Part shown: one piece after another, positions 1,003 through 52,909 of the stretch
Layout: every line of letters starts with the position of its first letter
Position numbering within the stretch: the first letter of the stretch is position 1
Origin: a virus
IMG/VR virus record: IMGVR_UViG_3300045594_000630
Strand: one strand, 5' to 3'
Length of the DNA stretch: 64,000 nucleotides
Notes under the pieces: model-generated
What the model was told of the DNA's origin: nothing
What the model saw: only the letters and a program-made list of their open reading frames with translations
Database searches by the model: none
Position numbers and translations under genes: made by a program

Positions 1003-1190
1003 GGTATGAAGATATGCAGATCTGGGCTCTTGTAGGATGCGGACAAGACCTGGCGGCGATGATAGCATCTACGGCCACCGGGTACGTCTGGACTCTCGTG
1101 GACACGCCGGCTAAGTAAGATCATAAAAAGTTTTTTGGCTACGGGTCTCAACGTTTAGAGCATATCTGCAAAAGATCTTCCTGATAGATG

Positions 1191-1219
1191 TTGCATTCAT
1201 GCTAGCTCCGTGATATATT
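1191..1219 (+). promoter_or_regulatory. sigma70-type promoter upstream of the stand-alone omega-RNA
   Basis: TTGCAT-17 nt-TATATT with extended -10 TG. Confidence 0.65.
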
Positions 1220-1224
1220 ATCTA

Positions 1225-1425
1225 TTGTATTTGAAAGTTAAACAACTTGAATACAAGTTCGGGTTGAGCACCGTGTTACAGACGGAACGCTCCTGGCGTC
1301 CGAGAGGCGTCAGTCAAACCCCTGCTAGTAATCAGGGTTGACGTGAACGAGGATTCTCGGTAACGGCGACGGGTTTAACCAAGAATAACGGTTACTAGCA
1401 ACTGTCAACGTTCATAGGGAACGCT
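1225..1425 (+). ncRNA. stand-alone TnpB omega-RNA scaffold (to about 1405) plus putative guide
   Basis: About 1249-1405 is colinear with the 3' ends of both tnpB elements; conserved GCTAGTAA/TTACTAGC pseudoknot and AACTGT end; no tnpB ORF upstream. Confidence 0.8.
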
Positions 1426-1446
1426 ACTGATAAGGAACTGGAGGTC

Positions 1447-1596
1447 ATGATGGCAGCATTGCGTACAGTCAAATCAATGCGGTCGGCTCTTCAGGGCCAG
1501 TGGCCGCTTCAATCAGCTATGGATTATCAGCGCCTGAGTAGCGCAACGGCGTGCCTGATTAAGCATGTCTTTAATCCAGCGAGGATGATTGCGTAA
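1447..1596 (+). CDS. small ORF, 49 aa (MMAALRTVKS...RMIA)
   Basis: GGAGG Shine-Dalgarno before ATG; followed by a terminator; too short for the ORF track. Confidence 0.45.
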   Translation: MMAALRTVKSMRSALQGQWPLQSAMDYQRLSSATACLIKHVFNPARMIA

Positions 1597-1617
1597 CGTT
1601 GTAGATCTGTGGAAACA

Positions 1618-1658
1618 GAAACGGCGCAATCTTATCACGGGGATTGCGCCGTTCTTTG
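1618..1658 (+). terminator. intrinsic terminator
   Basis: aacggcgcaatc/gattgcgccgtt stem followed by a T-rich tail. Confidence 0.65.
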
Positions 1659-1682
1659 TATCTGTCACATAATTGAAGATTA

Positions 1683-1756
1683 CGGGTCGTAGCCCAGCTT
1701 GGTAGGGCGCCTCGTTCGGGACGAGGAGGCCGCGGGTTCAAATCCCGCCAACCCGA
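1683..1756 (+). tRNA. tRNA-Pro(CGG)
   Basis: cctcg-ttCGGga-cgagg. Confidence 0.92.
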
Positions 1757-1847
1757 CACGCCGTGGGAACACGATTGTCAACGACCGTGTTATCATGGAT
1801 AACGCCGCGCTTCACGGAGCGTCGATAACTTAAGAATGCACCATCAA

Positions 1848-1921
1848 CGGGATGTAGCGCAGCTTGGTAGCGCGCTTGCTTTGGGAGCAAGATGCCGCAG
1901 GTTCGAATCCTGTCATCCCGA
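1848..1921 (+). tRNA. tRNA-Pro(TGG)
   Basis: cttgc-ttTGGga-gcaag. Confidence 0.95.
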
Positions 1922-2459
1922 CGATGATCGCCTGATTCTCGTGACTGACTGATCGAGTGACGCTCGTGAAGATCAGCCGCGATGGTGATCTGAATAACTG
2001 AATACAGAACTGCTCGCACCAGTTGGAAGCAAAGTGCGCGACGGCCCGGGTACCGGAATGTGAAAGAACTCACCCTGCTTGGTCACGAAGATCACCATGT
2101 AGTCGATGGTGCAGTGACGGAGCGCCTGAATACAGGATCGAGCATGGGGAAGCCATCGCCCTGATTCTTGAAGGTCCGTATGGATCTGATGGAGATGTAC
2201 ATTGTACGTCAGCAACGCGATGATAACTCATGAACGGGATTACCAGCGTCATTCATGGAATGTTGACGACCCGTAGACATAAACAAGTTCCTTCAGATTA
2301 TCTTCAAAACGATGCAGATCTGCGGTCGGTGCGATGCAGATCTGAGGTCGTCGTCCCACCGGTGAGATGCACCGGCAACCGTTGATGATGCTGTGACCGC
2401 ATCATTGACAGCACATGTGGTCATCGTCGTGCTGGCGGACGTGAAACGCCAGTTCTTAT

Positions 2460-2534
2460 TCCCCGGGAGCAACCTTCGGCGGCTGCGATCGACTGTTAAT
2501 CGATAGAGAGCTGGTTCGACTCCAGTCCGGGGAG
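2460..2534 (+). tRNA. tRNA-Asn(GTT), atypical D arm (G8)
   Basis: atcga-ctGTTaa-tcgat; acceptor tccccgg/ccgggga. Confidence 0.8.
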
Positions 2535-2736
2535 CGATGGTTGAAAAGGGCGAAGATTGTTAAAAGATTGCTCATCATTCTGAATCCACGTGGTAGCTCC
2601 TCGTGGACGATGATAGGAAAGTCCGGAATCGAAAACTGATGACGATCATACTCTGGTCAATGTGCCATACAATCGGGAGGTCCATATCGTAATTCAGCGA
2701 GGCCTAGCGAGTAATTGACCTCAAGGTCCATCCAAT

Positions 2737-2813
2737 GCTTTCATGGCCCAATCGGCAGAGGCGCAGGGCACACTGCAGACCTGTTCATACTGGTTCGACT
2801 CCAGTTGGAAGCA
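2737..2813 (+). pseudogene. Leu-body tRNA-like gene with a 10-nt scrambled anticodon loop
   Basis: Body matches 6485-6558; anticodon arm caggg-cacactgcag-acctg. Confidence 0.65.
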
Positions 2814-2926
2814 CGCAGTATCAGTAGGCTATGAGCTGGCAGCGTGACGCAAGTCATCTTGGTTATCTGTGACCACCAGCGAGCTGAATGCAATAGCAGA
2901 CGGGTGAGTGCAAGGCTCACCATCAT

Positions 2927-3011
2927 GGATGATTCGCATAGAGGCCTAGTGCACTTGTCTTGAAAACAAGAGTGGGTCACACCACCGGGGGTTCGAATCC
3001 CTCATCATCCG
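2927..3011 (+). tRNA. tRNA-Ser(TGA)
   Basis: cttgt-ctTGAaa-acaag; long variable arm. Confidence 0.92.
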
Positions 3012-3121
3012 CGACCCGTACGTTGGGTCCATCTGGCGACACGATGGATTGGCGGTCCATCTTCTCCTGGCGGGGGATAGCCGGTTGATGTGATCGCATA
3101 CGGATTGCATCGCATACAGAT

Positions 3122-3206
3122 GCCCTCATGGCTGGAATAGGTAGACGCGGACGGCTCAAACCCGTCTCCCGTAATGGGGATCTCGGTTCGACTCCGAGTG
3201 AGGGTA
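3122..3206 (+). tRNA. tRNA-Leu(CAA)
   Basis: gacgg-ctCAAac-ccgtc; long variable arm. Confidence 0.92.
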
Positions 3207-3471
3207 CGACGAACACATCGGGCGGCTTAATCACCCGTCCGGTCGTGGGCATACATATGTCGCGCGTGGACGTGATTGATCCACGTGGATAGCCCGTTGC
3301 CAGGCATGTCCCGGCGGAAGTTTGATGCAGATTCTGCGTAGTTCGTCTTCCGTTGGGATCACTTGAAGACAGGTGCGGCCCGTTGGCTGCGGTGGAAGTG
3401 GGGTCCGAGTACCCAACGGTACCGGTTAGACTCCGGCTCCGGCGCGTGGGAACTCATCCATCTCCATATCT

Positions 3472-3545
3472 GCTCTCTTAGCCCAATTGGTAGAGGCGAT
3501 AGACCAAGGATCTATTCAGTGCGGGTTCGAGTCCCGTGGAGAGCA
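3472..3545 (+). tRNA. tRNA-Leu(AAG), C33, short variable loop
   Basis: ataga-ccAAGga-tctat; same body as the Leu TAG and CAG genes. Confidence 0.8.
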
Positions 3546-3896
3546 CAGATCTCATGACATCCTTACGGATGTCCTCTGAGATTCAGGGTCGATTCACTGT
3601 GGTGGTGATGAACATGCTCAAGGCCCGTCATGCAAGCATAGGAGTATGGAGCGAAGTTCCTATGTGGCTGCTGGTGCTGCGTAAACTGGTCGCGGTACAC
3701 GAATAACCAGATGATGTCCGGACTACTTGCCGGACAGACATGACAAGCAAGATGCTAACCACTGATTGCTTCCAGCATTAAATTGACTGGATAATGGCGA
3801 GATGGTGAAAGCCCATCGAGTGGAGTTAAAACCCGCGGCTTAATTAACCGTGGGGATCAGGGAGACTATGAATCGATCTGTTCACGCCACGCTTAC

Positions 3897-3969
3897 GCCC
3901 TTATAGCTCAGATGGTAGAGCAGCTGACTCTTAATCAGCGTGTCCGGGGTTCGAGCCCCCGTGAGGGCA
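3897..3969 (+). tRNA. tRNA-Lys(CTT)
   Basis: gctga-ctCTTaa-tcagc. Confidence 0.95.
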
Positions 3970-4017
3970 CTTATGAGCATTGATAGCATTGTGGCGCATT
4001 GATGATCATATGATTAT

Positions 4018-4101
4018 GGATGGTAGGCTGAGCGGTTAAGGCGCCTGTTCGCTAAACAGGTTCGTGTCACAGCGTGGTGGGTTCGACTCCCGCATCATCC
4101 G
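4018..4101 (+). tRNA. tRNA-Ser(GCT) copy 1, C33
   Basis: cctgt-tcGCTaa-acagg; paralog of 11519-11602. Confidence 0.82.
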
Positions 4102-4224
4102 CGGTCGGTAGGGGTTGTCCTCACTGGGCGATCAGCGACCTCATGAGCGCACGCATGGGATCAGTCACAGATCGTTGCAGTGCAGAACCCCTTCAGAAGA
4201 TGGACTCCGTGAAGGTCCACGAAT

Positions 4225-4297
4225 GCCGTCATAGCTCAGATGGTAGAGCGGCGAGCTGAAACCTCGCAGGTCGCTGGTTCAAGTCCAGTTGTCGGCA
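4225..4297 (+). tRNA. tRNA-Phe(GAA)
   Basis: gcgag-ctGAAac-ctcgc. Confidence 0.93.
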
Positions 4298-4298
4298 C

Positions 4299-4382
4299 GG
4301 TGCGGCTGAGCGACGGTCGCTCAGGTGGCCGTAACCCACCCGTTCGTAATGAGCATTGCAGGTTCGAATCCTGTCCGCACCA
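4299..4382 (+). tRNA. tRNA-Tyr(GTA), C33, atypical D arm
   Basis: ggtgg-ccGTAac-ccacc; acceptor ggtgcgg/ccgcacc. Confidence 0.75.
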
Positions 4383-4406
4383 CTCAGATCTGAAACAGAT
4401 CTGTAT

Positions 4407-4477
4407 GCGTCCATCGTATAATGGTAGTACTTGAGCTTCCAAACCTCATGATCTGGGTTCGATTCCTAGTGGGCGTG
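4407..4477 (+). tRNA. tRNA-Trp(CCA), probable (Gly-like D arm)
   Basis: tgagc-ttCCAaa-cctca with a C31-C39 mismatch; G73 and acceptor resembling 7618-7690. Confidence 0.65.
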
Positions 4478-4629
4478 CGAGACCAAGCCGTGAGGTGAGG
4501 TCATGGTTGACTGCATGATCGCCTACAATGCGTGTGGCTAGACACTGAAGTCATGCAGACAGCGTCGTCACTGGTATCGGCGGTGACGGCAACCGGTTCT
4601 CGTGTCCGGCTTACCAAAATACGACCAAT

Positions 4630-4702
4630 GGGGGCATGGCGCAGCTGGTAGCGCAACTCCTCAGCAAGGAGTAGGTCGCGGGTCCGAGTCCCGCTGCTTC
4701 CA
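4630..4702 (+). tRNA. tRNA-Ala(AGC), C33, C55
   Basis: actcc-tcAGCaa-ggagt; G3-U70, A73. Confidence 0.82.
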
Positions 4703-4929
4703 CTTGGATCCATCAAGACAGGGCGGCGTCAGCAGCATGATGGATCCGCGACACGCCGGTGATTGAGATCGGGCTGACTATGTTACAATGGTATTGTCCA
4801 CGAAAACGATGGATCACCCGAAGCCTGATAACCTAATCTAAGTCAATCATCTGGATCCATTGTCCACAGCGTATGCTCAGGATGATGGCAGGATGTCAAA
4901 GTCCCCGCGATGACGATAAACCCGCGAAT

Positions 4930-5010
4930 GCCCCTATGGTAGGAATTGGTAGACACGGTCGACTTAAAATCGATTGCTTAGGCGTCCCGGTTCGAGTCCG
5001 GGTGGGGGTA
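4930..5010 (+). tRNA. tRNA-Leu(TAA)
   Basis: gtcga-ctTAAaa-tcgat. Confidence 0.92.
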
Positions 5011-5125
5011 CAAGGTCGCGCCTAGGCGCGACCGCTCATCGGATCCATGTGATTCGATGAGCATGCAGTACCGTGAGATGATGCGGGTTCGAGTCCGCCT
5101 GGCAATCATTAACGGTGACGGAGTT

Positions 5126-5197
5126 GATCTAGTAACTCAATGGCAGAAGCTACTCCATTTATTGTGGAAATGCGGGTTCGAATCCCGCCTAGTGATC
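5126..5197 (+). pseudogene. degenerate tRNA (loop ttTATtg)
   Basis: Intact T arm gcggg-ttcgaat-cccgc; 2-nt insertion in the acceptor; weak D arm. Confidence 0.45.
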
Positions 5198-5282
5198 CGT
5201 CACAGATGATGCTGTGCGTCAATGGCGCATTGGAATAGATTCAACATTCTAATGGGGCCAGTCATCCAGCGTCCGCATGAAT

Positions 5283-5356
5283 GCTTTCATAGCCCAATAG
5301 GTAGAGGCGATGGATTTAGGATCCATTCAGTGCTGGTTCGAGTCCAGTTGAAAGCA
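5283..5356 (+). tRNA. tRNA-Leu(TAG), short variable loop
   Basis: atgga-ttTAGga-tccat. Confidence 0.9.
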
Positions 5357-5359
5357 CAA

Positions 5360-5446
5360 TGTCCGAATCAACTTAACGGCAGAGCAGCGGCCGAAACGCC
5401 GTGCGCGGGTCATTCCCGGCCTGTAGGGTTCGACTCCCACCGGACA
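5360..5446 (+). pseudogene. class II tRNA-like gene with a 6-nt anticodon loop
   Basis: gcggc-cgaaac-gccgt; variable-arm hairpin; ttcgact T loop. Confidence 0.4.
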
Positions 5447-5587
5447 GGAGCTGTATGCAAGTGGTGACGATCATGAGCATACGGTTCACAGCGTGGCGAA
5501 GATCTTGACGATGATCTTCATCACGCACGTTTGGCTCTATCATCGCTTGGCGATGATTGCAAGGTTCATCCCAAGGAGCCAATTCAT

Positions 5588-5659
5588 GGCCGTGAGGTCC
5601 TACGGTTGGACGCCTGCCTGTCGAGCAGGTTGCAGCGGGTTCAACTCCCGTCATGGTCG
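5588..5659 (+). tRNA. tRNA-Asp(GTC) copy 1
   Basis: cctgc-ctGTCga-gcagg. Confidence 0.88.
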
Positions 5660-5904
5660 CAAGGTGCCTGGTGTCTGCGCCGAGGATCAGCCCCTGGCTG
5701 ATCCATGACACCCGGTGGAAACGGCATGGTGACATGAAAACAGCATGGATCCATGATACGCCCTCCGTCTGTTACTTTCCGTCGGTGATGCTGAGGCGGC
5801 GGGGTTAACGATCTGTATTGTAGCGGATCGCTGCCGGCACGACCACATGGTCTTGAATGGACATGAAGCATCTCACGTGACGTCCGTGAAGCGTCACTTA
5901 AATT

Positions 5905-5984
5905 GGTGCGTTGGCAGAGCGGCAAATGCGGCTGGCTGTAAACCAGCTCTTTCGGGTTCGGGGGTTCGAGTCCCTCACGCACCA
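5905..5984 (+). tRNA. tRNA-Tyr(GTA)
   Basis: gctgg-ctGTAaa-ccagc. Confidence 0.93.
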
Positions 5985-6129
5985 CACAACATGTTTGGAT
6001 GGGTTAAAGGACACCAATGGCCCCATCCTGTTGACAGTGCTCACTGTCAACAGCGTGTGATCGTGCAGTGCAGGTGCCCAGTCGACCACTGCACGGGATA
6101 GTCCTCATGATGACGATAAAAGCATGAAT

Positions 6130-6200
6130 GCCTCTATAGTTCAAAGGAAGAACTTCGGACTTTTAATCCGCAGATCGGATATCGTAATTCCGTGGGGGCA
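6130..6200 (+). tRNA. tRNA-Lys(TTT) with aberrant T loop ATCGTAA
   Basis: tcgga-ctTTTaa-tccgc; acceptor gcctcta/tgggggc. Confidence 0.7.
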
Positions 6201-6484
6201 CGATGGTCATGTGGATTGCAACTGCGTGATCACGACTCGAATCTGCAGATTCGGGAATATGGATGCAAGTGAGCACAAGCCGCTGGTTGTGGTTCGAATC
6301 CCGCTCCTCAATGGTTATACCGGCGAGGGCGCGCCAATCGGTAGAGCGGGCGGCTGAACTCAACTGCATTCATCATGCAAGCATGTGGGGGTGTTCGACT
6401 CCCGCCTAGGGGCTCCATCGTGAGAGCGGTGGACACGCCCTTGGTGGTCTAGGGGTCATGGCGCTTCATATTGCTTGCACTTAT

Positions 6485-6558
6485 GCTTCCATAGCCCAAC
6501 AGGTAGAGGCGCAGGCTTCAGGAGTCTGTCAGTGCCGGTTCGAATCCAGTTGGAAGCA
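6485..6558 (+). tRNA. tRNA-Leu(CAG), short variable loop
   Basis: caggc-ttCAGga-gtctg. Confidence 0.88.
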
Positions 6559-6695
6559 CGGGCCACTAAAGATGTGAGTTCGCTCTGAAATCTAGCTAGA
6601 TACATCAATTGACCAAGGATGGTAACGTTGCGGAGTCATGATCCGTATGACGCGGATGTCACACGATGTTGGCATCATGCATCACCATTCGATAT

Positions 6696-6769
6696 GCTCT
6701 CATAGCCCAATGGATCAGAGCGCTTGTCTACGGAACAAGAGGGTGCGGGTTCGAGTCCCGCTGGGAGCA
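6696..6769 (+). tRNA. tRNA-Arg(ACG)
   Basis: cttgt-ctACGga-acaag. Confidence 0.93.
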
Positions 6770-6795
6770 CCGTGACCACATGGTGTGGTCATTAT

Positions 6796-6866
6796 TGCCC
6801 ATTCGTCTAACGGCAGGACGAAGGTCTTTGGTACCTTTAAAGTTGGTTCGAATCCAGCATGGGCAG
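6796..6866 (+). tRNA. tRNA-Gln(TTG)
   Basis: aaggt-ctTTGgt-acctt. Confidence 0.92.
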
Positions 6867-6867
6867 C

Positions 6868-6940
6868 GCTTCTCTGGCTCAATGGTTACAGCATCTGACT
6901 CTTAATCAGAGGATTGTGGGTTCGATCCCCACGGGGAGCA
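6868..6940 (+). tRNA. tRNA-Lys(CTT) copy 2
   Basis: tctga-ctCTTaa-tcaga. Confidence 0.9.
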
Positions 6941-6974
6941 CTTGGGGACATTCTGGTGACAGATGTCTACCATA

Positions 6975-7014
6975 GGGGCGGCTATATACCATGGTTCAAA
7001 TCCATGGCGCTCCA
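6975..7014 (+). ncRNA. tRNA-Ala-like minihelix (acceptor plus T arm only)
   Basis: ggggcg/cgctcc with G3-U70 and A73; ccatgg-ttcaaat-ccatgg; 8-nt linker replaces the D and anticodon arms. Confidence 0.5.
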
Positions 7015-7056
7015 CGACGGATGATGTCAGATCTGCTCCACATCGTCCTCACGTAT

Positions 7057-7129
7057 TGCTTGATAGCGCAACTGGGAACGCGCTCCGCTCTGGACGGAGA
7101 GATTGCAGGTCCGAATCCTGCTCAAGCAG
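7057..7129 (+). tRNA. tRNA-Gln(CTG), C55
   Basis: ctccg-ctCTGga-cggag. Confidence 0.88.
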
Positions 7130-7217
7130 CTTCACAGGTTTGGTGGCTAGCGTCGGCGGGTTGATACTGCCGACGCCCGTAGCGAGGGAGAGTCCTCGTG
7201 CAGATCTGTGGATTCTT

Positions 7218-7292
7218 GCCCTTGTAGCTCAGCGGATCAGAGCATCGGTCCTCGGAACCGAGTTGTCGCAGGTTCGAATCCTGTCAGGGGCA
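7218..7292 (+). tRNA. tRNA-Arg(TCG), C33
   Basis: tcggt-ccTCGga-accga. Confidence 0.85.
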
Positions 7293-7330
7293 CTGGCGAT
7301 GGTGCAGGCAGTGATGCTTGCGGATCGCCT

Positions 7331-7375
7331 GCAGCGTCACCGGGTCAGGGTGGGAACACAGCAGCCCAGCGCTGT
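7331..7375 (+). ncRNA. ffs: minimal SRP (4.5S-like) RNA, domain IV/helix 8
   Basis: cagcgt-cacc-ggg-tcagg-gtg-GGAA-cac-agcag-ccc-a-gcgctg: GGAA tetraloop with the symmetric and asymmetric loops of the SRP consensus. Confidence 0.8.
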
Positions 7376-7377
7376 TT

Positions 7378-7450
7378 GGGGTTGTAGCTCAGATGGTAGA
7401 GCGCTTCGTTCGCATCGAAGAGGTCGCGGGTTCGACTCCCGCTAATTCCA
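7378..7450 (+). tRNA. tRNA-Ala(CGC)
   Basis: cttcg-ttCGCat-cgaag; G3-U70. Confidence 0.92.
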
Positions 7451-7532
7451 CTGACCTTGGATCTGGTCTTACCATTGATGGGGCGCTTAGCTCCGTCATC
7501 TTCTGTACCTAGGCTGGTCCGAGTGTCTTCAT

Positions 7533-7615
7533 GGTGCGTTGGCAGAACGGCGAATGCAGTCGATCATACAGATCGGCATCTTCGGGATACGGGGGTTCGA
7601 GTCCCTCACGCACCG
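7533..7615 (+). pseudogene. Tyr-body tRNA-like gene with extended anticodon arm and G73
   Basis: Paralog of 5905-5984; arm gtcgatc-ataca-gatcggc. Confidence 0.6.
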
Positions 7616-7617
7616 CA

Positions 7618-7690
7618 TCGTCCGTGGCGTAAATGGTAGCGCAGCGGTCTCCAAAACCGCAGATTGCAGGTTCGAGTCCTGTCGGGCGTG
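7618..7690 (+). tRNA. tRNA-Trp(CCA)
   Basis: gcggt-ctCCAaa-accgc; G73. Confidence 0.9.
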
Positions 7691-7724
7691 CTATGACTGC
7701 AACCTGTAAAAAGGGTAGTCGTAT

Positions 7725-7796
7725 GCCGGTATAGCACAATGGTCAATGCTTCTGCTTAGTAAACAGATGATGATGGTTCGATTCCATCTATCGGCT
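7725..7796 (+). tRNA. tRNA-Thr(AGT)
   Basis: tctgc-ttAGTaa-acaga (C31-A39 mismatch). Confidence 0.82.
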
Positions 7797-7797
7797 C

Positions 7798-7871
7798 GTT
7801 CGCGTGGCGCAGTTGGTTAGCGCGCTTCCATGACACGGAAGAGGTCGCCTGTTCGAGTCAGGCCGTGAGCA
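7798..7871 (+). tRNA. tRNA-Val(GAC)
   Basis: cttcc-atGACac-ggaag. Confidence 0.92.
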
Positions 7872-7872
7872 C

Positions 7873-7945
7873 GCCTCCATAGCTCAGATGGTAGAGCGGC
7901 TCTCTCGTAAAGAGCAGGTCTCCGGTCCGATTCCGGATGGTGGCT
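7873..7945 (+). tRNA. tRNA-Thr(CGT), C55
   Basis: gctct-ctCGTaa-agagc. Confidence 0.9.
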
Positions 7946-7975
7946 CTAGTGGAACAGATCTGTATCCACGATCAT

Positions 7976-8047
7976 GCGGGTATCGTACATCGGTAAGTAC
8001 ATCTTTCTGATGAGAAGAAAAGCGGAGTTCGACTCTCTGTACCCGTA
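7976..8047 (+). tRNA. tRNA-Ile(GAT), Gly-like body
   Basis: tcttt-ctGATga-gaaga; A73. Confidence 0.75.
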
Positions 8048-8071
8048 CTGGTGACAGACTGCTGTCATCAT

Positions 8072-8144
8072 GGGGACGTAACTCAATTGGTAGAGTGCTT
8101 CCCTTGCAAGGAAGATGTAGCGAGTTCGAATCTCGTCGCCTCCA
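8072..8144 (+). tRNA. tRNA-Ala(TGC)
   Basis: cttcc-ctTGCaa-ggaag; G3-U70. Confidence 0.92.
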
Positions 8145-8267
8145 CGGCGCCCGTTCAACGGGCTATGTCATTAGAAGCGTTCTAACGCGCATTAGACGTG
8201 AGACCATCATGAAGATGAGTGTTCATTCATCTTCATGGTTATCTCGCTTAGAACGCAATCTAAGCAT

Positions 8268-8339
8268 CCGGATGTAGTACAACGGTTAGTATAATTGTCT
8301 GATACACAATTGACGATAGTTCAACTCTATCCATCCGGA
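8268..8339 (+). tRNA. tRNA-Ile(GAT)
   Basis: attgt-ctGATac-acaat. Confidence 0.88.
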
Positions 8340-8406
8340 CTATGGATCCATATGATGTGGACATGTGAGCAAGCATTGAGCCCGTCATGATGGATCCATT
8401 CTGCAT

Positions 8407-8480
8407 CGCTGCGTAGCTCAGTTGGTGAGAGCGTTCGACCCATAATCGAGAGGTCGGTGGTTCGAGTCCACCCGTAGTGA
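8407..8480 (+). tRNA. tRNA-Met or Ile2 (CAT), C33
   Basis: ttcga-ccCATaa-tcgag; positions 1-72 paired. Confidence 0.82.
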
Positions 8481-8601
8481 CGATCCTGTTAGCATGACGA
8501 CTGGTCATCTCATGCTGATGGGGTAAGAATGAGAGCAGCGTTGGATTGACCGATCCGCGTGGATTTGCGTCCGTTAGTGGCGTGATCCCCCATTCGATTA
8601 T

Positions 8602-8674
8602 GGTCCTATGGAGCAACGGTCACCTCGTCTGATTCTCAGTCAGAAGATTCCGGGTTCGATTCCCGGTGGGACTA
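8602..8674 (+). tRNA. tRNA-Glu(CTC)
   Basis: tctga-ttCTCag-tcaga. Confidence 0.92.
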
Positions 8675-8892
8675 CGCAGCATTGAGTACATGTCCGGTTC
8701 AATGGGCACATCCAAATAGTCTCTCAGGATCAATGTGAGGATGGGTCAGATCATGATGGAAGTCCTGTAGATCGTGGTCATCATGCTGCACGCAACATAC
8801 GGGTCTAGCGGTCCCGTCGGTGATCATTGCGAGCATTACAGCGCATCGTGCTCGCATGATCTTACAGATCCTCCGTCAATGGATCTTATTAT

Positions 8893-8964
8893 GGCCTTGA
8901 GGTCCTCCGGTTGGACGCCTGCCTGTCGAGCAGGTTGCAGCGGGTTCGATTCCCGTCATGGTCG
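8893..8964 (+). tRNA. tRNA-Asp(GTC) copy 2
   Basis: Near duplicate of 5588-5659; one acceptor mismatch. Confidence 0.85.
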
Positions 8965-8965
8965 C

Positions 8966-9036
8966 CGTGGTGTGGCCGAATGGTTAGGCGGCGGTCTGCA
9001 AAACCGTATAAGTCAGTTCGATTCTGATCACCACGT
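8966..9036 (+). tRNA. tRNA-Cys(GCA)
   Basis: gcggt-ctGCAaa-accgt; U73. Confidence 0.92.
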
Positions 9037-9039
9037 CTT

Positions 9040-9353
9040 GAGTTCCGCTTGACGTCGCGCGTCTAACAGGCGTGAGGAAATTCGGGGCATCATAGGGCAG
9101 GGGTGTGGATTAGACCACCGATCGTGAGATCAGCGATAGCGCCGCAGAGACCATACCGCCGATGGATCCATACGGGTCACAGGCAAGGGTGAAAAGCGTG
9201 AGGTAAGAGCTCACGGGATAATCTTCGCGAGGAGATCCTTGGCAAGCCGACCCTGATGAAACCACAAGTCGTGCTGGGCGGCCCGTCCAATAGCACAGGT
9301 AGCGGGATCAGATGGATGGCGTCTTAGACAGAACTCCGGTTACGGTGGAACTC
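9040..9353 (+). ncRNA. rnpB: RNase P RNA (bacterial type A-like, compact)
   Basis: P1 gagttccgc/gtggaactc; CR-I gaggaaattcgggg; agcgccgcagaga; accgccgatgg; aagggtgaaaag-ggtaagagc; CR-V acagaactccggtta. Confidence 0.9.
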
Positions 9354-9378
9354 ATGAACGATCTGCTCGACACTCCGG

Positions 9379-9407
9379 TTGTCAAGATGCTCGATCAGTG
9401 ATATGAT
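9379..9407 (+). promoter_or_regulatory. internal sigma70-type promoter of the array
   Basis: TTGTCA-17 nt-TATGAT with extended TG. Confidence 0.55.
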
Positions 9408-9488
9408 GGATCATGTTGTTCCTGATGACAACAGAAGCTTGATAACAGGATAGTGATTGACCCGATGAAGTCAGTAAACTCATCATAT

Positions 9489-9562
9489 GCCCGCATAGCC
9501 CAATGGACTAGAGCGCCAGTTTCCTAAACTGTAGGTTGTCGGTTCGAATCCGACTGTGGGCA
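9489..9562 (+). tRNA. tRNA-Arg(CCT)
   Basis: ccagt-ttCCTaa-actgt. Confidence 0.9.
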
Positions 9563-9735
9563 CTTGGACACTCCGGTGAAGCTATCCTCATGTGAAGACG
9601 TAGGGGCTTGACAGGGGCTGGTGGAGTGGACAATCGTGTAGGCAATGCGGTTAAGCGTCGTCAATGGTCGCAAAGTAGGCGGAAGCGTTGACAAGCATGC
9701 CGATCCCAGCAGGATGGCGCCATCTTGCTGGTTAC

Positions 9736-9809
9736 GCCTCGGTAGTCTAATGGATCAAAACGCCACTCCTCTAAAGTGGATAGTATGGGTTCGAATCCCA
9801 TTCGAGGCA
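9736..9809 (+). tRNA. tRNA-Arg(TCT), C33
   Basis: ccact-ccTCTaa-agtgg. Confidence 0.85.
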
Positions 9810-9810
9810 C

Positions 9811-9885
9811 GTGGACTATGGCTCAATGGTAGAGCGACGGATTGTGGCTCCGTAGGTGCGGGTTCGATTCCCGCTAGCCCAACCA
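9811..9885 (+). tRNA. tRNA-His(GTG) with G-1, A73 and encoded CCA
   Basis: acgga-ttGTGgc-tccgt. Confidence 0.88.
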
Positions 9886-9926
9886 CCGATGAGAATGTCA
9901 ACAGATGTTGACAAGAATCATCGTAT

Positions 9927-10001
9927 GGCCCCGCGGTGTGCTTGGTCTGCGCATACGTGACTTTCAATCACATGGTGACGGTTCGAGTCCGTCCGGGGCT
10001 A
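9927..10001 (+). tRNA. tRNA-Glu(TTC)
   Basis: cgtga-ctTTCaa-tcaca. Confidence 0.85.
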
Positions 10002-10030
10002 CCCTCCATGAGACATGGATGAACGATCTT

Positions 10031-10101
10031 GCCCCATTGTCGCCGGTTGCGCAACGATATCTTATAAACATTGTAAGAGGGTTCAACTCCTTCATGGGGT
10101 A
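10031..10101 (+). tRNA. tRNA-Ile(TAT), atypical D arm
   Basis: gatat-ctTATaa-acatt; acceptor gccccat/atggggt; A73. Confidence 0.6.
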
Positions 10102-10266
10102 CTTGTCGGGGAATGGCATAGTCTCCAGCGCACGTCATCCTAGGTGGCGTGGTCAACTGGCGGCAAGCGCCAGCAGATCTGATCTGTCGCTTCCCGTAAG
10201 AACAGCTCCTCTCCCCGACCACATCGTGATATCTTGTACACGACATTGGTATCATGGTGCTTGCAT

Positions 10267-10337
10267 GCGGATGTAGCCCAATGGTAAGGCGTCAGTCTTC
10301 CAAACTGATTACGCGGGTCCGATTCCCGTCATCCGCT
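10267..10337 (+). tRNA. tRNA-Gly(TCC), C55
   Basis: tcagt-ctTCCaa-actga; U73. Confidence 0.9.
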
Positions 10338-10493
10338 CTGAAGGCCAACAGCTCCTGGACTAGCGATCCGAGAGTTGCATAAACGGTGTGGTAGTCTGTT
10401 GGCCTGTAACACGCGCTGCGTCTCATGTGCCGGCAAGCGCCGTCACGCAGGCTATATCGGACACTCACGTGGTGAGACAGGGTGTCCACCAAT

Positions 10494-10566
10494 GCGGACA
10501 TGGTCTAGCTGGTAAGACGCGACCTTCCCAAGGTTGAGATCGCGGGTTCGAGCCCCGTTGTCCGCT
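10494..10566 (+). tRNA. tRNA-Gly(CCC)
   Basis: cgacc-ttCCCaa-ggttg. Confidence 0.92.
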
Positions 10567-10693
10567 CGATCGTCATTGCGGTAATGGCTGGCCGGGCAGT
10601 AATGGCGTTGATACCCGGAACTGCGCTCCTTGTGGATTCGATTGTATCCACGCAGGGTTAGGCGATCACGATGGAGCTTGTCGCCGCCATTAT

Positions 10694-10766
10694 GCTTCCG
10701 TAGCTCAGATGGCAGAGCGCCTCGGTCACATCGAGGATGTCGATGGTTCAAGTCCATTCGGAAGCA
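10694..10766 (+). tRNA. tRNA-Val(CAC)
   Basis: cctcg-gtCACat-cgagg. Confidence 0.92.
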
Positions 10767-10767
10767 C

Positions 10768-10844
10768 TGCGGGGTCGAGTAGCAATTCGGTAGCTCTCGT
10801 GGCTCATACCCACGGTGTTGCAGGTTCAAATCCTGCCCCCGCTA
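10768..10844 (+). tRNA. initiator-like tRNA-fMet(CAT)
   Basis: cgtgg-ctCATac-ccacg; U1-U72 mismatch; only two of the three G-C pairs. Confidence 0.8.
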
Positions 10845-10885
10845 CTAAGATCTGCGCTCATGAACGCAGATCTGCATGCAGTCTT

Positions 10886-10961
10886 GCTCCTGTAGCCCAG
10901 TCCGGCCCAAGGCGTCTGCCTTACACGCAGAAGATCCATGGTTCGAATCCATGTGGGAGCA
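10886..10961 (+). tRNA. tRNA-Val(TAC)
   Basis: tctgc-ctTACac-gcaga. Confidence 0.92.
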
Positions 10962-11105
10962 CGGCGGAACCTACTTGCAAGAGTCATCGTGCTGATAGTT
11001 CCCGAACGGGAGTAAGACGAGTGCAGGGAATGCCCTGGACTCGTCGAGAATTCAATGGTCGACTGGTTCCTTTCGCAATGCTGGCATTCAAGCATTGCAC
11101 TCAAT

Positions 11106-11178
11106 GCGGACATAGCTTAGTTGGTAAAGCGCGACCTTGCCAAGGTCGAGACCGCGGGTTCAAGTCCCGTTGTCCGCT
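11106..11178 (+). tRNA. tRNA-Gly(GCC)
   Basis: cgacc-ttGCCaa-ggtcg. Confidence 0.95.
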
Positions 11179-11182
11179 CTTC

Positions 11183-12959: not shown

Positions 12960-14714
12960 TGTAAACGTTAGATACCTGTTTTTCTTGTTATTTATGTTAC
13001 CGTCGTGATAATGATTAACGAGTTGCCTTTATAATGATCTTGAATGGTATAATATTCATTATCATAGTCAAGGGGTGAATAACCGTGAGGAAGAGCAAGA
13101 TCATCAGCATGGCGCTGAGCCTTAACCTGAGCGATGCTATCATTACCCCGTCACCCGGGAAGCGGCAGCCAAGCGTTACGGAATGGCCACCTTACATCAT
13201 GAGCACCCTACAGACTCAGACGAGGGATCAGAATAAGATCATAAGGCTTAACAAGGGCTTGGATCCTGATGACATGACTACTGGTCTCAAGTACTCGGAT
13301 CCCCTCATCCGCAAGAACATGATCATCCCGTCCAGCGTCAAGGAGAGCAGGGCGAGCGCATGGTTGAACACGGCATGGAGTCTGATTAACGACCAGTTAG
13401 AGTCATGGCGCTTACTCGCTCCATGGGCTCAACGATCCAGGCTCTTTGACGAAATCCGCGAGGGACCGAGCCTCGGGTTCAAGGACTTCAGGAGGAAGCA
13501 CGGGTACGAGTACCTGGACTACCAGCTCTGGTCTAACGTGCAGAGAATGAAGAGTAAGCCAGGACTCCCCGTCGTGAAGTCAGCGAGAATCTCGTACTCC
13601 AAGATGGGAGTACAGTGCTCCGGGGCGCCATGGTACGATAGTAAGACTGGAGTCTTGCACTGGGAATGCGTGAACATCGGTCAAGCGCGCCTAGACTTCT
13701 CATGGCACGCTCCGTGGATTCGTGCACGATACCCTCGCAGGTCCCTTCAGACCGGACGGATCAGCCGAGGAACGGTCCAGGCCGTACCCATGACTAGCCA
13801 CTCATTCAGCGTGGGGTACGGGGAGGACGCGAGCGGTAAGATCCGTGCTAGCATCTCTCGTGAGAATAACCGAGTAACATTCAGCCCGGCGACGGATGAC
13901 GTACGATTCACCTTCACGATTAAGGCTACTCGGCCATCGATACGCAAGCGTGTTAAGGCGGTTGCCGGGTTTGATATCGGGATGGAGTCGCACGCGGTGA
14001 TAGCCGGCCGGCGCGTGAGCCTGAACGGCGGAACGAGCAGGCCGCTCACGCTGAGCCGGGAGGGATTATCCCTCCAGCGTCACATCATCTCGCTCCAGCT
14101 AAAAGAACGGGAGGCTCTCGCGAAGCTCTCGAGGATCATGCAGGATCATGAGCCTGTGGCGAACCCGAGGCTCGTGGAGGGTGCTATCCATCTTCACGAG
14201 AAGCTGGAGGCGCTGAAGGCCGCGATGGACTGGGTCGCCGCGGACTCAGCCGTGAAGCACTGCCGTCCGGGTGACGTGCTCGTAATGGAGGAGCTCTCAT
14301 GGTCTGGCGGTGGCGCGGTGAAGTTCCGTCACGGCCGGCAGCAGGCTCGTGTCCAGCACCTCGCCGCTAGGCGCGGTTTCAGGATGGTTAGGGTGAACCC
14401 TGCCGGATCTAGTCACGAGTGTCCATCATGCCACGCCGCGTACGATGCGGATCCGAGGAGTCACGCCTTCAAGTGCAGCTCTTGCGGGTACGCGGGGGAT
14501 AAGGATGACGCGGCCGGTTTTATCATCGCACTCCGCGGCTTGGAGAAGCTCCGCAAGAATAACAATTACGGGTTGAGCGCCGTGGTACAGACGGTCCGCT
14601 CTCGTCGTCCAAGAGGCGACGGTTATGCCCATGCTAGTAACCAGGGTCACCGCGAACGAGCATGCTCGGTAACGGCGGCGGGTCTAACCAAGAATAACGG
14701 TTACTAGCAACTGT
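12960..14714 (+). mobile_element. non-autonomous tnpB-only element, copy 1 (IS200/605/607 superfamily)
   Basis: Homology with copy 2 runs from TGTAAAC to AACTGT; no tnpA; omega-RNA overlaps the last ~46 codons. Confidence 0.85.
13085..14707 (+). CDS. tnpB: TnpB RNA-guided endonuclease, 540 aa
   Basis: RuvC FDIG / VMEEL / DKDDAA; CPSC-CSSC zinc finger. Confidence 0.85.
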   Translation: MRKSKIISMALSLNLSDAIITPSPGKRQPSVTEWPPYIMSTLQTQTRDQNKIIRLNKGLDPDDMTTGLKYSDPLIRKNMIIPSSVKESRASAWLNTAWSLINDQLESWRLLAPWAQRSRLFDEIREGPSLGFKDFRRKHGYEYLDYQLWSNVQRMKSKPGLPVVKSARISYSKMGVQCSGAPWYDSKTGVLHWECVNIGQARLDFSWHAPWIRARYPRRSLQTGRISRGTVQAVPMTSHSFSVGYGEDASGKIRASISRENNRVTFSPATDDVRFTFTIKATRPSIRKRVKAVAGFDIGMESHAVIAGRRVSLNGGTSRPLTLSREGLSLQRHIISLQLKEREALAKLSRIMQDHEPVANPRLVEGAIHLHEKLEALKAAMDWVAADSAVKHCRPGDVLVMEELSWSGGGAVKFRHGRQQARVQHLAARRGFRMVRVNPAGSSHECPSCHAAYDADPRSHAFKCSSCGYAGDKDDAAGFIIALRGLEKLRKNNNYGLSAVVQTVRSRRPRGDGYAHASNQGHRERACSVTAAGLTKNNGY

Positions 14715-51159: not shown

Positions 51160-52909
51160 ACAGTTGCTAGTAACCGTTATTCTTGGTTAGACCCGCCGCC
51201 GTTACCGAGCATGCTCGTTCACGGTGGCCCTGGTTACTAGCATGGGCATGACCGTCGCCTCTCGGACGACGAGAGCGGACCGTCTGTACCACGGCGCTCA
51301 ACCCAAACTTGTTATTCTTGCGGAGCTTCCCCAGGCCGCGCAGCGCGAGAGTGAAGCTAGCCGCGTCATCCTTATCCCCCGCGTAACCGCACCTCACGCA
51401 CTTGAATGAGTGCGATCGGGGATCAGCATCATACGCGGCGCGGCATGACGGGCACTCGTGACTCGACCCGGCAGGATCCACCCTCACCATCTTGACGCCA
51501 CGCCTATCGGCGAGGTGCTGGACACGAGCCTGCTGCCGCCCATGACGGAACTTCACCGCGCCGCCGCCAGCCCATGAGAGCTCCTCCATTACGAGCACGT
51601 CACCCGGGCGGCAGTGCTTCACGGCTGAGTCAGCAGCGACCCAATCCATCGCATCCTTCAAGAGCTCCAGCTTCTCGTGAAGATGGATAGTACCCTCCAC
51701 GAGCCTCGGGTTCGCCATGGGCTCATGATCCTGCATGATCCTCGAGAGCTTCGCGAGAGCCTCCCGTTCTTTTAGCTGGAGCGAGATGATGTGACGCTGG
51801 AGTGATGATCCCTCCCGGCTCAGCGTGAGCGGCCTGCTCGTTCCGCCGTTCAGGCTCACGCGCCGTCCGGCTATCACCGCGTGCGACTCCATCCCGATAT
51901 CGAACCCGACGACCGCATTGACGCGCTTGCGTATCGACGGTGCCGTGGACTTGATCGTGAAGGTGAATCGTACGTCGTCCGTCGCCGGGTTGAATGACAC
52001 GGTGTTAACAGTACGTGAGATCTTGGCGCGGATCTTACCAGCCACGTCTTCCTTGTATCCTACGCTGAATGAGTGGCTAGTCTTAGGGACGGCCTGGATC
52101 GTTCCCCGGCTGATCCTGCCAGCCTGGAGCGAGCGGCGGGGGTACCGGGCACGGATCCACGGAGCGTGCCATGCGAAGTCTAGGCGAGCTTGACCGATGT
52201 TCACGTTATCCCAGTGCAAGACTCCAGTCTTACGATCGTACCATGGCTTATTAGAGATCTGCATGGCCATCTTGGAATACGCGATCCGCGCTGACTCCAC
52301 GACGGGGAGTCCTGGCTTACTCTTCATTCTCTGCACGTTAGACCAGAGCTGGTAGTCCAGGTACTCGTACTCGTGCTTCTTCTTGAAGTCCTTGAAGCTT
52401 AATGGGCCTTTATCAGAACGGGCCTCATCAAAGAGCCTGGATCGTTGAGCCCATGGCGCGAGTAAGCGCCATGCTTCTAATTGATCGTTAATCAGGCTCC
52501 ATGCCGTGTTCGACCATGCTTCCGTCCTGCTCTCCTTGACACTTGGAGGGATGATCATGTTCTTGCGAATCAGGGGATCCGAGTACTTGAGGCCAGTAGT
52601 CATGTCATCAGGGTCCAGGCCCTTATTAGCGCTTATGATCTTATTCTGATCCGCCGTCTGGGTTTTCAGAATACTCACGATGTAAGATGGCCAGTCCGTC
52701 ACGCCCGGTTGCCGCTTCCCGGGCGACGGGGTGATGATCGCGCCGCTCAGATTAAGGCTAAGTGCCATGCTGATGGTCTTACGCTTCCTCACGATTATTC
52801 ACCCCTTGACTATGATAATGAATATTATACCATTCAATATCATTATAAGGGTAACTCATTATCACGGAGGTAACATCAATAACAAGAAGACAGGTATCTA
52901 ATGTTTACA
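51160..52909 (-). mobile_element. non-autonomous tnpB-only element, copy 2
   Basis: Same TGTAAAC left end and AACTGT right end as copy 1. Confidence 0.85.
51167..52792 (-). CDS. tnpB: TnpB RNA-guided endonuclease, 541 aa
   Basis: Close paralog of 13085-14707; RuvC D/E/D and zinc finger intact. Confidence 0.85.
   Translation of the reverse strand: MRKRKTISMALSLNLSGAIITPSPGKRQPGVTDWPSYIVSILKTQTADQNKIISANKGLDPDDMTTGLKYSDPLIRKNMIIPPSVKESRTEAWSNTAWSLINDQLEAWRLLAPWAQRSRLFDEARSDKGPLSFKDFKKKHEYEYLDYQLWSNVQRMKSKPGLPVVESARIAYSKMAMQISNKPWYDRKTGVLHWDNVNIGQARLDFAWHAPWIRARYPRRSLQAGRISRGTIQAVPKTSHSFSVGYKEDVAGKIRAKISRTVNTVSFNPATDDVRFTFTIKSTAPSIRKRVNAVVGFDIGMESHAVIAGRRVSLNGGTSRPLTLSREGSSLQRHIISLQLKEREALAKLSRIMQDHEPMANPRLVEGTIHLHEKLELLKDAMDWVAADSAVKHCRPGDVLVMEELSWAGGGAVKFRHGRQQARVQHLADRRGVKMVRVDPAGSSHECPSCRAAYDADPRSHSFKCVRCGYAGDKDDAASFTLALRGLGKLRKNNKFGLSAVVQTVRSRRPRGDGHAHASNQGHRERACSVTAAGLTKNNGY

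What the first reader, a model, noticed from the sequence alone, without database searches (positions are those of the whole stretch)
1191..1425. Stand-alone TnpB omega-RNA with its own promoter and a third, distinct guide
Seen: about 1249-1405 aligns with the RNA embedded in the 3' end of both tnpB genes. It keeps the 8-bp GCTAGTAA/TTACTAGC pseudoknot and stems with compensatory changes (gtcgtc/ggcgac versus ggcgtc/ggcgtc), and ends in AACTGT. There is no tnpB remnant or left end. Instead there is a TTGCAT-17-TATATT promoter and a 5' hairpin (ttgtatt...aatacaa). The three downstream sequences differ: caacgttcatagggaacg (orphan), cattgtgatagcc (copy 1) and tggatggatttc (copy 2). Established: the sequence 3' of the scaffold is the TnpB guide. 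Inference: a domesticated trans-acting guide that reprograms the two intact TnpBs against an outside target, a proto-CRISPR-like arrangement at the head of the tRNA island.
Basis: partly seen in the sequence, partly recalled or inferred. Interest (0 to 1): 0.85.

Follow-up and report, generated by a model that had tools for sequence, protein, structure and literature searches.

The report
Stand-alone TnpB guide RNA remnant
This is a real, gene-less copy of the guide-RNA module of an IS607-type TnpB transposon, left by an internal deletion in a huge phage-like genome; its RNA fold is still intact, but stand-alone guide RNAs of this kind are already known, and nothing shows it was re-aimed at an outside target.

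Summary
Window 1243-1405 is a third copy (84-88% identical, no indels) of the omega-RNA scaffold that overlaps the 3' end of the two 540/541-aa tnpB genes. All copies end in CAACTGT and diverge from the next base.

Relatives from metagenomes carry a serine-recombinase tnpA, so the family is IS607-type.

The orphan is not free of a left end. The best reading is an internally deleted third insertion: a left-end promoter piece fused to the right-end RNA module.

The tnpB frame is dead (TGA at 1339-1341; 8 of 9 changed codons non-synonymous). The fold is kept: 2 of 46 pairs are broken against about 8.7 expected, P about 0.0006, with two compensatory double changes.

The "third guide" is simply the DNA flanking a third insertion site. 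No exact target was found. One short match was at chance level, and one TAM-less near-match in the window stays unexplained. No RNA data exist.

Stand-alone omega-RNAs that act in trans are already described (PMC10691335, PMC10055086). Verdict: a new member of a known kind, of modest interest. The "domesticated, proto-CRISPR" reading is unsupported.

The parts
1189..1215 (+). Remnant of the IS left end (subterminal region that holds the tnpA promoter in full IS607-type relatives)
   Evidence: The local alignment to the copy 2 left end scores 28 against a null maximum of 27 in 1000 shuffles. The same left-end position is hit in copy 1, L004, L009 and L013, and CCGTGATATA is identical to L009. 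Whole-left-end alignments give p=0.002 and 0.0125.
1191..1219 (+). Promoter-like site: TTGCAT (1191-1196), 17-nt spacer, TG (1211-1212), TATATT (1214-1219)
   Evidence: Read from the sequence. It matches 8 of 12 consensus positions and was not called by the generic scan. The -10 box aligns with the TGATATAAT of the left-end promoter in relatives. Activity is inferred.
1225..1256 (+). AT-rich 5' hairpin between the -10 box and the scaffold; role unknown
   Evidence: Present in the minimum-free-energy and centroid folds of 1222-1425.
1243..1405 (+). Omega-RNA scaffold, which is the right end of the element (structured core 1261-1400); a dead tnpB 3' end
   Evidence: Searches give the homology: 84-88% identity with no indels. 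Searches give the structure: 46 pairs, of which the orphan breaks 2. One search shows the in-frame TGA at 1339-1341.
1323..1400 (+). Long-range 11-bp helix (1323-1333 with 1390-1400) containing GCTAGTAA/TTACTAGC; the pseudoknot-equivalent helix next to the guide
   Evidence: Helix 4. One pair covaries across the family (U-A in the three window copies, G-U in the four relatives).
1403..1405 (+). TGT core shared by the right end and the left-end flank (recombination core and part of the TAM)
   Evidence: All right ends finish in CAACTGT. All left ends are preceded by (A/T)T(T/A)GT.
1406..1425 (+). Guide position: the DNA flanking the right end (CAACGTTCATAGGGAACGCT)
   Evidence: Sequences diverge exactly here in all seven distinct scaffold sequences.
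1447..1596 (+). 49-aa ORF with a GGAGG ribosome-binding site directly after the guide; unsupported as a gene
   Evidence: One search lists the ORF. It has no Pfam or PHROG hit and no homologue.
1620..1653 (+). Intrinsic-terminator-like hairpin with a T tail, ahead of the first tRNA (1683)
12960..14714 (+). Copy 1: solo-tnpB element (tnpB 13085-14707, 540 aa), a candidate source of TnpB in trans
   Evidence: One search shows D297, E402, D474/D475 and four zinc-finger cysteines invariant across the family.
51160..52909 (-). Copy 2: solo-tnpB element (tnpB 51167-52792, 541 aa; 86% identical to the copy 1 protein)

Best explanation
The orphan is the right-end/omega-RNA module of a third, independent insertion of an IS607-type TnpB element. 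It lost tnpB (and tnpA) through an internal deletion. The deletion joined a piece of the left end, including the promoter that drives tnpA in full elements, to a point about 30 nt upstream of the scaffold. The left-end terminus has decayed, so the element is probably immobile. The result is a stand-alone omega-RNA gene.

Shown: the homology, the left-end remnant, the dead reading frame, and the preserved RNA fold.

Inferred: it is transcribed from the left-end-derived promoter, and the RNA is bound in trans by one or both resident TnpBs. Its guide is the DNA next to its own insertion site. The expected activity is therefore the ordinary TnpB one: cutting genomes that carry the unoccupied site (TAM ending in TGT, followed by CAACGTTCATAGGG...), such as co-infecting relatives. 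This favours retention or copying of this locus. It is not a re-aimed defence guide.
For: Homology and boundaries.

The family is IS607-type. Relatives with 54-73% identical TnpB carry an adjacent serine recombinase with an HTH domain.

A deletion series exists in the family. There are full elements (L004, L009-L012) and tnpA-deleted solo-tnpB elements (window copies 1 and 2; L006-L008, which keep a tnpA 5' stub). There is also a 438-nt element with left end, tnpA 5' part, tnpB 3' part and right end in the 419.7-kb phage G001 (L013).

Left-end remnant at 1189-1215.

No coding constraint remains. There is a TGA at 1339-1341, and 8 of 9 changed codons are non-synonymous.

RNA constraint is visible. 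With the structure derived from the six other sequences, the orphan differs from their consensus at 18 sites yet breaks 2 of 46 pairs. Random substitutions break 8.7 on average (P=0.0006). With only the 12 orphan-specific changes, P=0.014. There are two compensatory double changes. The single-sequence fold reproduces the consensus structure (z=-3.0).

The scaffold is far better kept than the adjoining left-end DNA.

Both TnpBs are full-length with a conserved D-E-D triad and zinc-finger cysteines.

Precedent: stand-alone omega-RNAs function in trans (PMC10691335), and PATE-like elements carry omega-RNAs (PMC10055086).
Against: There is no expression data of any kind, and the promoter is only a modest consensus match.

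The structure-preserving changes could have arisen while the scaffold still lay inside a working tnpB. The C-terminal tail of TnpB is weakly constrained as protein, so the dead frame does not date them.

Two pairs are broken (1270/1286 and 1341/1366). The orphan branch is longer than that of gene-embedded scaffolds (12 unique changes, against 4 differences between copies 1 and 2).

The orphan scaffold differs by 14-16% from the scaffolds of the two resident TnpBs, and cross-recognition is untested.

The related phage G001 keeps a similar derivative without any full-length cognate TnpB. This shows that such remnants can persist as plain relics.

No related genome with the same locus was available, so conservation of the orphan itself could not be tested.
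Confidence: 0.6

Rival explanations
1. It is an inert relic: the decaying stump of a deleted IS607-type element, not expressed or not bound, with no function. The good fold would reflect a short time since deletion, or changes made before the deletion.
For: The left-end terminus is unrecognisable and the promoter is sub-consensus. Two pairs are broken and the branch is long. G001 holds a comparable derivative with no cognate TnpB. No target was found for the guide.
Against: There are 18 differences from the family consensus with no indel and only 2 broken pairs (P=0.0006), including two compensatory doubles. The adjacent left-end-derived DNA has decayed much further than the scaffold. The 5' limit of the retained homology falls just upstream of the first helix (1243 against 1261). 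Two intact cognate TnpBs are present in the same genome.
Confidence: 0.25
2. One reading: a domesticated trans-acting guide kept by the phage to aim its TnpBs at an outside target such as a competitor phage, a plasmid or the host, as a proto-CRISPR-like arrangement.
For: The fold is intact and the promoter-like sequence is present. GT plus the first 16 nt of the guide match exactly inside a conserved gene (phrog_6721) of two unrelated IMG/VR phage contigs, preceded by TGTGT.
Against: That match is at chance level. About 1-2 hits are expected for an 18-mer in a collection of that size (my estimate), and the two hits are homologous to each other. The 20-nt guide has no exact match in IMG/VR or in 185,579 species genomes, and only chance-level BLAST hits in phages and plasmids. 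The guide position holds flanking DNA by construction. There is no array, no repeat and no acquisition machinery. The left-end remnant points to passive origin by deletion.
Confidence: 0.08
3. The scaffold has been recruited for a TnpB-independent role, for example as a structured 5' leader of the 49-aa ORF or of the tRNA operon transcript.
For: The ORF at 1447-1596 has a GGAGG site 22 nt after the scaffold, and a terminator follows at 1620-1653.
Against: The ORF has no homologue and no family hit. The preserved pairs are exactly those of the TnpB scaffold. The terminator separates the unit from the tRNAs.
Confidence: 0.04

Closest known systems
Stand-alone omega-RNAs of OMEGA systems (Altae-Tran et al. 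2021, as summarised in PMC10691335)
   Same: A scaffold plus guide with no adjacent effector or transposase, in a genome that also holds effector-encoding copies. These were reported to work in trans with compatible effectors.
   Different: Those were described as evidently mobilised copies. This one has lost a recognisable left-end terminus and is probably immobile. It is IS607-type and sits in a huge phage-like element, and its trans use is untested.
PATE-like gene-less IS200/IS605 elements carrying omega-RNAs in Geobacillus stearothermophilus (Meers et al., PMC10055086)
   Same: Left-end plus right-end mini-elements without protein genes, whose omega-RNA would need TnpB from another element.
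   Different: PATEs keep both functional ends and are moved by a Y1 TnpA. Here the relatives use a serine recombinase, and only a subterminal left-end piece survives.
IS607-family TnpB/omega-RNA, e.g. the CboIStron (PMC10690162)
   Same: A serine-recombinase tnpA in relatives. A short core is shared by the left-end flank and the right-end tip (GG there, GT/TGT here). The scaffold ends with the core and the guide starts at the next base. TnpB cuts the donor joint of TAM plus guide.
   Different: There is no intron. The TnpBs are larger (about 540 aa) and match only the Pfam TNB domain. The window copies lack tnpA.
TldR guide RNAs (nuclease-dead TnpB-derived repressors, PMC10705468)
   Same: A TnpB-family scaffold whose guide has a host-level function away from transposition.
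   Different: TldRs have lost the RuvC site, and their guides match conserved promoter targets. Here the RuvC triad is conserved and no target is known.
Type V CRISPR (tracrRNA/crRNA derived from a split omega-RNA)
   Same: An RNA scaffold separated from the nuclease gene.
   Different: There are no repeats, no array, no adaptation genes and no split of scaffold from guide. The proto-CRISPR label is only an analogy.

Membership tests
TnpB omega-RNA (right-end-derived guide RNA) | Sequence homologous to the 3' end of a tnpB gene and its right end, stopping at the transposon boundary | tested here: met
   84-88% identity to seven distinct scaffold sequences with no gaps. All end in CAACTGT.
TnpB omega-RNA (right-end-derived guide RNA) | Conserved secondary structure, including a long-range helix next to the guide | tested here: met
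   46-pair consensus with 97.8% of cells paired, against 29-48% in slid controls. The orphan breaks 2 pairs (P=0.0006).
TnpB omega-RNA (right-end-derived guide RNA) | Variable guide immediately 3' of the scaffold | tested here: met
   The seven distinct scaffold sequences have seven different flanking sequences from the base after CAACTGT.
TnpB omega-RNA (right-end-derived guide RNA) | Transcribed and bound by TnpB | not testable with these tools
   No RNA run was listed.
Stand-alone (effector-less) omega-RNA | No effector or transposase gene attached, with a compatible effector elsewhere in the same genome | tested here: met
   No tnpB sequence lies upstream of 1243, and the frame is dead. 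Two intact TnpBs lie at 13085-14707 and 51167-52792. Compatibility is inferred.
PATE/MITE-like non-autonomous element | Both transposon ends intact, so that it can be mobilised in trans | tested here: not met
   The right end is intact. Only a subterminal left-end segment is detectable, and the left-end terminus is not (p about 0.3).
IS607 family | Serine-recombinase TnpA next to tnpB | tested here: inconclusive
   Met in the relatives L004, L009-L012. Absent from all three window copies, which are deletion derivatives.
IS607 family | Identical short core at the left-end flank and the right-end tip | tested here: met
   TGT precedes every left end and ends every right end. This is the arrangement described for GG in PMC10690162.
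CRISPR-like array or proto-CRISPR | Repeated scaffold or repeat units with several spacers, or spacer matches to foreign DNA | tested here: not met
   It is a single unit with no repeats. There are no guide matches beyond chance.

The most novel reading that the evidence does not exclude
The phage keeps this tnpB-less guide on purpose. Loaded by the two resident TnpBs, it would cut co-infecting relatives that lack the insertion at the head of the tRNA island, or competitor phages that carry the phrog_6721 site. Repair from the orphan-bearing genome would then spread the adjoining tRNA island. That would be an RNA-guided gene drive or weapon between phages.
Probability: 0.07. Interest if true: 0.8.

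Novelty: new member of a known kind. Interest (0 to 1): 0.35.

Why it matters
It is a clean natural example of how a TnpB guide RNA becomes separated from its nuclease gene. An internal deletion put the transposon's own left-end promoter in front of the scaffold. The fold then stayed intact after the reading frame died. That step, an RNA module freed from the effector gene, is one that models of type V CRISPR origin need, so the locus is a useful data point. It also shows IS607-type TnpB elements in several stages of deletion in huge phage-like genomes from sludge. It does not by itself show a new function.

Tried and rejected
- Whole-genome search: no genome is held for the window.
- Phage-database BLAST of 1070-1680: no match.
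- TnpB search in IMG/VR by protein: nothing.
- The GCTAGTAA-N60-TTACTAGC pattern in IMG/VR gave three unrelated loci, L001-L003, with no scaffold homology.
- Two conserved scaffold patterns in metagenome contigs: 0 hits. In IMG/VR they hit only L013.
- Synteny test: the neighbour gene 190-1068 has no close relative in the protein collection. Its 47% homologue in G001 is not next to a tRNA array or an empty site.
- Small ORF 1447-1596: no homologue and no family.
- RNA evidence: no RNA holder was listed for this stretch.
- Laid DNA contigs showed no allele lacking the orphan. One 619-nt 'joint' (1228 to 1848, side 26 nt) looks like a tRNA or repeat artefact.
- A flanking direct repeat (CAACGTT at 1149 and 1406), as a target duplication or a second left end: rejected. 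The 7-mer occurs at chance frequency (11 seen, 7.8 expected), and flank-to-flank BLAST found nothing below E=0.09.
- A 12-nt identity between 1145-1156 and the L013 flank was treated as chance.
- Guide BLAST against phages and plasmids: only E of 2 or more.

Full report
CONTEXT. The window belongs to a 349.7-kb contig from bioreactor-sludge metagenomes. It carries 51 tRNA genes (1683-11944), an RNase P RNA and a tmRNA. It also encodes gyrase A and B, an NAD-dependent ligase, a TET-associated glycosyltransferase and a PIF1 helicase, and also VirB11-like and TraG-like ATPases. A distant relative (one protein at 47% identity) is a 419.7-kb IMG/VR contig with direct terminal repeats, G001. I therefore call it a huge phage-like element. 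No capsid gene lies in the window, so a megaplasmid is not excluded.

THE OBSERVATION. Positions 1253-1407 match 14562-14716 at 84%, and 1253-1405 matches the reverse complement of 51160-51312 at 86%. A profile search finds exactly three copies in the window, the orphan at 1243-1405 (E=2.6e-53). The two other copies are the last 160 nt of two tnpB genes, at 13085-14707 and 51167-52792. The proteins are 540 and 541 aa and 86% identical. They match the Pfam Cas12f1-like TNB domain. D297, E402, D474/D475 and four zinc-finger cysteines are invariant across the family. All copies end in CAACTGT and diverge at the next base. GCTAGTAA and TTACTAGC occur only as three pairs, against 0.3 expected matches.

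WHAT FAMILY IT IS. The protein has few relatives. Those whose contigs could be fetched show a serine recombinase with an HTH domain directly upstream of tnpB (L004, L009-L012). This is the IS607 arrangement. Every left end is preceded by (A/T)T(T/A)GT, and every right end finishes in TGT. A shared core of this kind is known for IS607: GG in the CboIStron, where the scaffold ends with the core and TnpB cuts the TAM-plus-guide donor joint (PMC10690162).

The family shows a deletion series:
- Full elements: L004, L009-L012.
- tnpA-deleted solo-tnpB elements: window copies 1 and 2, and L006-L008, which keep a tnpA 5' stub.
- A 438-nt element in G001 that keeps the left end, about 100 nt of tnpA, about 300 nt of the tnpB 3' end and the right end (L013, 715-1152 on the minus strand).

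G001 has no full-length cognate TnpB.

THE ORPHAN HAS A LEFT-END REMNANT. Positions 1189-1215 (TGTTGCATTCATGCTAGCTCCGTGATA) align with the subterminal left end of copy 2. The match is 22 of 27 positions with one 2-nt gap, and none of 1000 shuffles reaches the score. The best local alignment to copy 1, L004, L009 and L013 falls at the same left-end position, with p=0.27, 0.027, 0.011 and 0.064. Alignments over the whole left end give p=0.002 and 0.0125. In the relatives this segment holds the TGATATAAT box upstream of tnpA. The 'own promoter' is thus most simply the transposon's left-end promoter, brought next to the scaffold by an internal deletion. The left-end terminus itself is not detectable (p about 0.3), so the element is probably no longer mobile. 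As a sigma-70 site, TTGCAT-17-TATATT matches 8 of 12 positions and was not called by the generic scan. The TG at 1211-1212 gives it an extended -10 box. Activity is inferred.

IS THE RNA STILL UNDER CONSTRAINT? The seven distinct scaffold sequences align without gaps. RNAalifold gives 46 pairs in seven helices. Of all cells, 97.8% form standard pairs, against 29-48% when partners are slid. In the tnpB frame the orphan has a TGA at 1339-1341, and 8 of its 9 changed codons are non-synonymous.

I derived the structure from the six other sequences only. The orphan differs from their consensus at 18 sites yet breaks only 2 pairs (1270/1286 and 1341/1366). The same number of random substitutions breaks 8.7 pairs on average (P=0.0006). 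Its energy in the consensus fold is -56.5 kcal/mol, against -38.4 for the simulations (P=0.0013). Counting only the 12 orphan-specific changes gives P=0.014. Two stem pairs changed on both sides: 1294/1312 from C-G to U-A, and 1296/1310 from U-A to G-U. The orphan folded on its own reproduces the consensus structure and adds a 5' hairpin at 1225-1256 (z=-3.0).

There is a caveat. Some of these changes may predate the deletion, because the TnpB C-terminal tail is weakly constrained as protein. Even so, the scaffold is far better preserved than the neighbouring left-end-derived DNA.

The 'pseudoknot' is a nested 11-bp helix in the predicted fold (1323-1333 with 1390-1400). It lies next to the guide, as the pseudoknot helix of the ISDra2 omega-RNA does (PMC10097598).

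LINEAGE. The orphan is 84-88% identical to every other scaffold. At the fixed differences between the two groups it sides with the window copies at 5 sites and with the metagenomic relatives at 6. It is therefore a third lineage and not a copy of copy 1 or copy 2. Three insertions give three flanking sequences, so a 'third, distinct guide' needs no special explanation.

THE GUIDE AND TARGETS.
- The 20-mer CAACGTTCATAGGGAACGCT has no exact match in IMG/VR.
- With GT in front of 18 nt of guide, it has none in 185,579 species genomes.
- BLAST against phages and plasmids gives only hits with E of 2 or more.
- GT plus 16 nt matches two IMG/VR contigs inside a conserved gene of unknown function (phrog_6721), preceded by TGTGT. 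The two hits are homologous to each other. By my estimate of the collection's size, one or two such hits are expected by chance.
- Inside the window the best near-match is 20369-20387, in a TraG-like gene. It matches 18 of 20 positions with a 1-nt gap, and 1 of 300 shuffled guides does as well (p about 0.003). It has no TGT in front. I leave it unexplained.

EXPRESSION AND POPULATION DATA. No RNA run could be listed. Contigs of three sludge DNA runs cover the locus without differences. They break at 1405, and summed depth over 1264-1404 is 20-30 times that of the flanks. Loose ends there read into tnpB sequence. The IS family is therefore abundant in that community. No allele without the orphan was seen, but assembled contigs drop rare variants.

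COMPARISON WITH WHAT IS KNOWN. Stand-alone omega-RNAs without an effector or transposase, in genomes that also hold full OMEGA loci, have been described. They were reported to work in trans, and their biological role is stated to be unknown (PMC10691335, citing Altae-Tran et al. 2021). Gene-less PATE-like elements that carry omega-RNAs needing TnpB in trans were noted in Geobacillus (PMC10055086). This locus belongs to that known kind. Its particular features are an IS607-type scaffold, a huge phage-like host genome, a visible origin by internal deletion that fused the left-end promoter to the RNA, and loss of the left-end terminus.

VERDICT.
- 0.60: a real stand-alone omega-RNA, derived by deletion, with its fold kept and plausibly usable by the resident TnpBs for ordinary homing or retention.
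- 0.25: an inert relic.
- 0.08: a domesticated guide against an outside target.
- 0.04: another role for the RNA.

It is a new member of a known kind, with interest 0.35.

Noticed in passing
window 20369-20387: Inside the TraG/VirD4-like gene (19978-22506) lies a near-copy of the orphan guide. It matches 18 of 20 positions with one 1-nt gap (1 of 300 shuffled guides does as well). No TGT precedes it. This is unexplained.
   Followed up: partly
window 35270-35310: A terminator hairpin (AGCCCTAGGAACGTTG / CAGCGTTCATAGGGCT followed by TTTTT) has arms that each resemble the first 16 nt of the orphan guide, with 3 mismatches. CAACGTTCCTAGG also occurs about 90 nt beyond the right end of the L013 element in G001.
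   Followed up: partly
window 1189-14714: The 10-kb tRNA island is bracketed, in the same orientation, by the orphan (left-end remnant plus right end) on its left and by full copy 1 on its right. This layout would allow recombinase-mediated excision or composite mobilisation of the island. Not tested.
   Followed up: no
L013 715-1152 (minus strand; G001 about 333.6 kb): The 419.7-kb IMG/VR phage with direct terminal repeats carries a 438-nt internally deleted IS607-type element (left end, tnpA 5' stub, tnpB 3' end, right end). It has no full-length cognate TnpB anywhere in its genome.
   Followed up: yes
L004 9367-14091: Two different IS607-type units lie in tandem. The first is a recombinase with a 532-aa TnpB of this family. 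The second is a recombinase with a 413-aa OrfB_IS605-type TnpB.
   Followed up: no
window 18758-22506: A VirB11-like T2SSE ATPase and a TraG/TraD-like coupling protein lie side by side. An FtsK-like gene lies at 11959-12888. These are conjugation-type genes in a genome that otherwise looks like a huge phage.
   Followed up: partly
window 9039-9358 and 53408-53755: A full-length bacterial class A RNase P RNA (166 bits) lies inside the tRNA array, and a tmRNA with tag AAYNTSDFALAA lies elsewhere in the window.
   Followed up: no
window 1264-1404 in sludge runs X1-X3: Summed contig depth over the scaffold is 20-30 times that of the flanks, so this IS family is very abundant in the bioreactor community.
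   Followed up: partly
window 14546-14714 versus 51160-51328: Copies 1 and 2 are 97% identical over the scaffold but about 88% identical over the rest of the element. The RNA-coding 3' end evolves much more slowly than the rest of tnpB.
   Followed up: partly
window 47197-48423: A TET-associated glycosyltransferase domain suggests DNA hypermodification.
   Followed up: no
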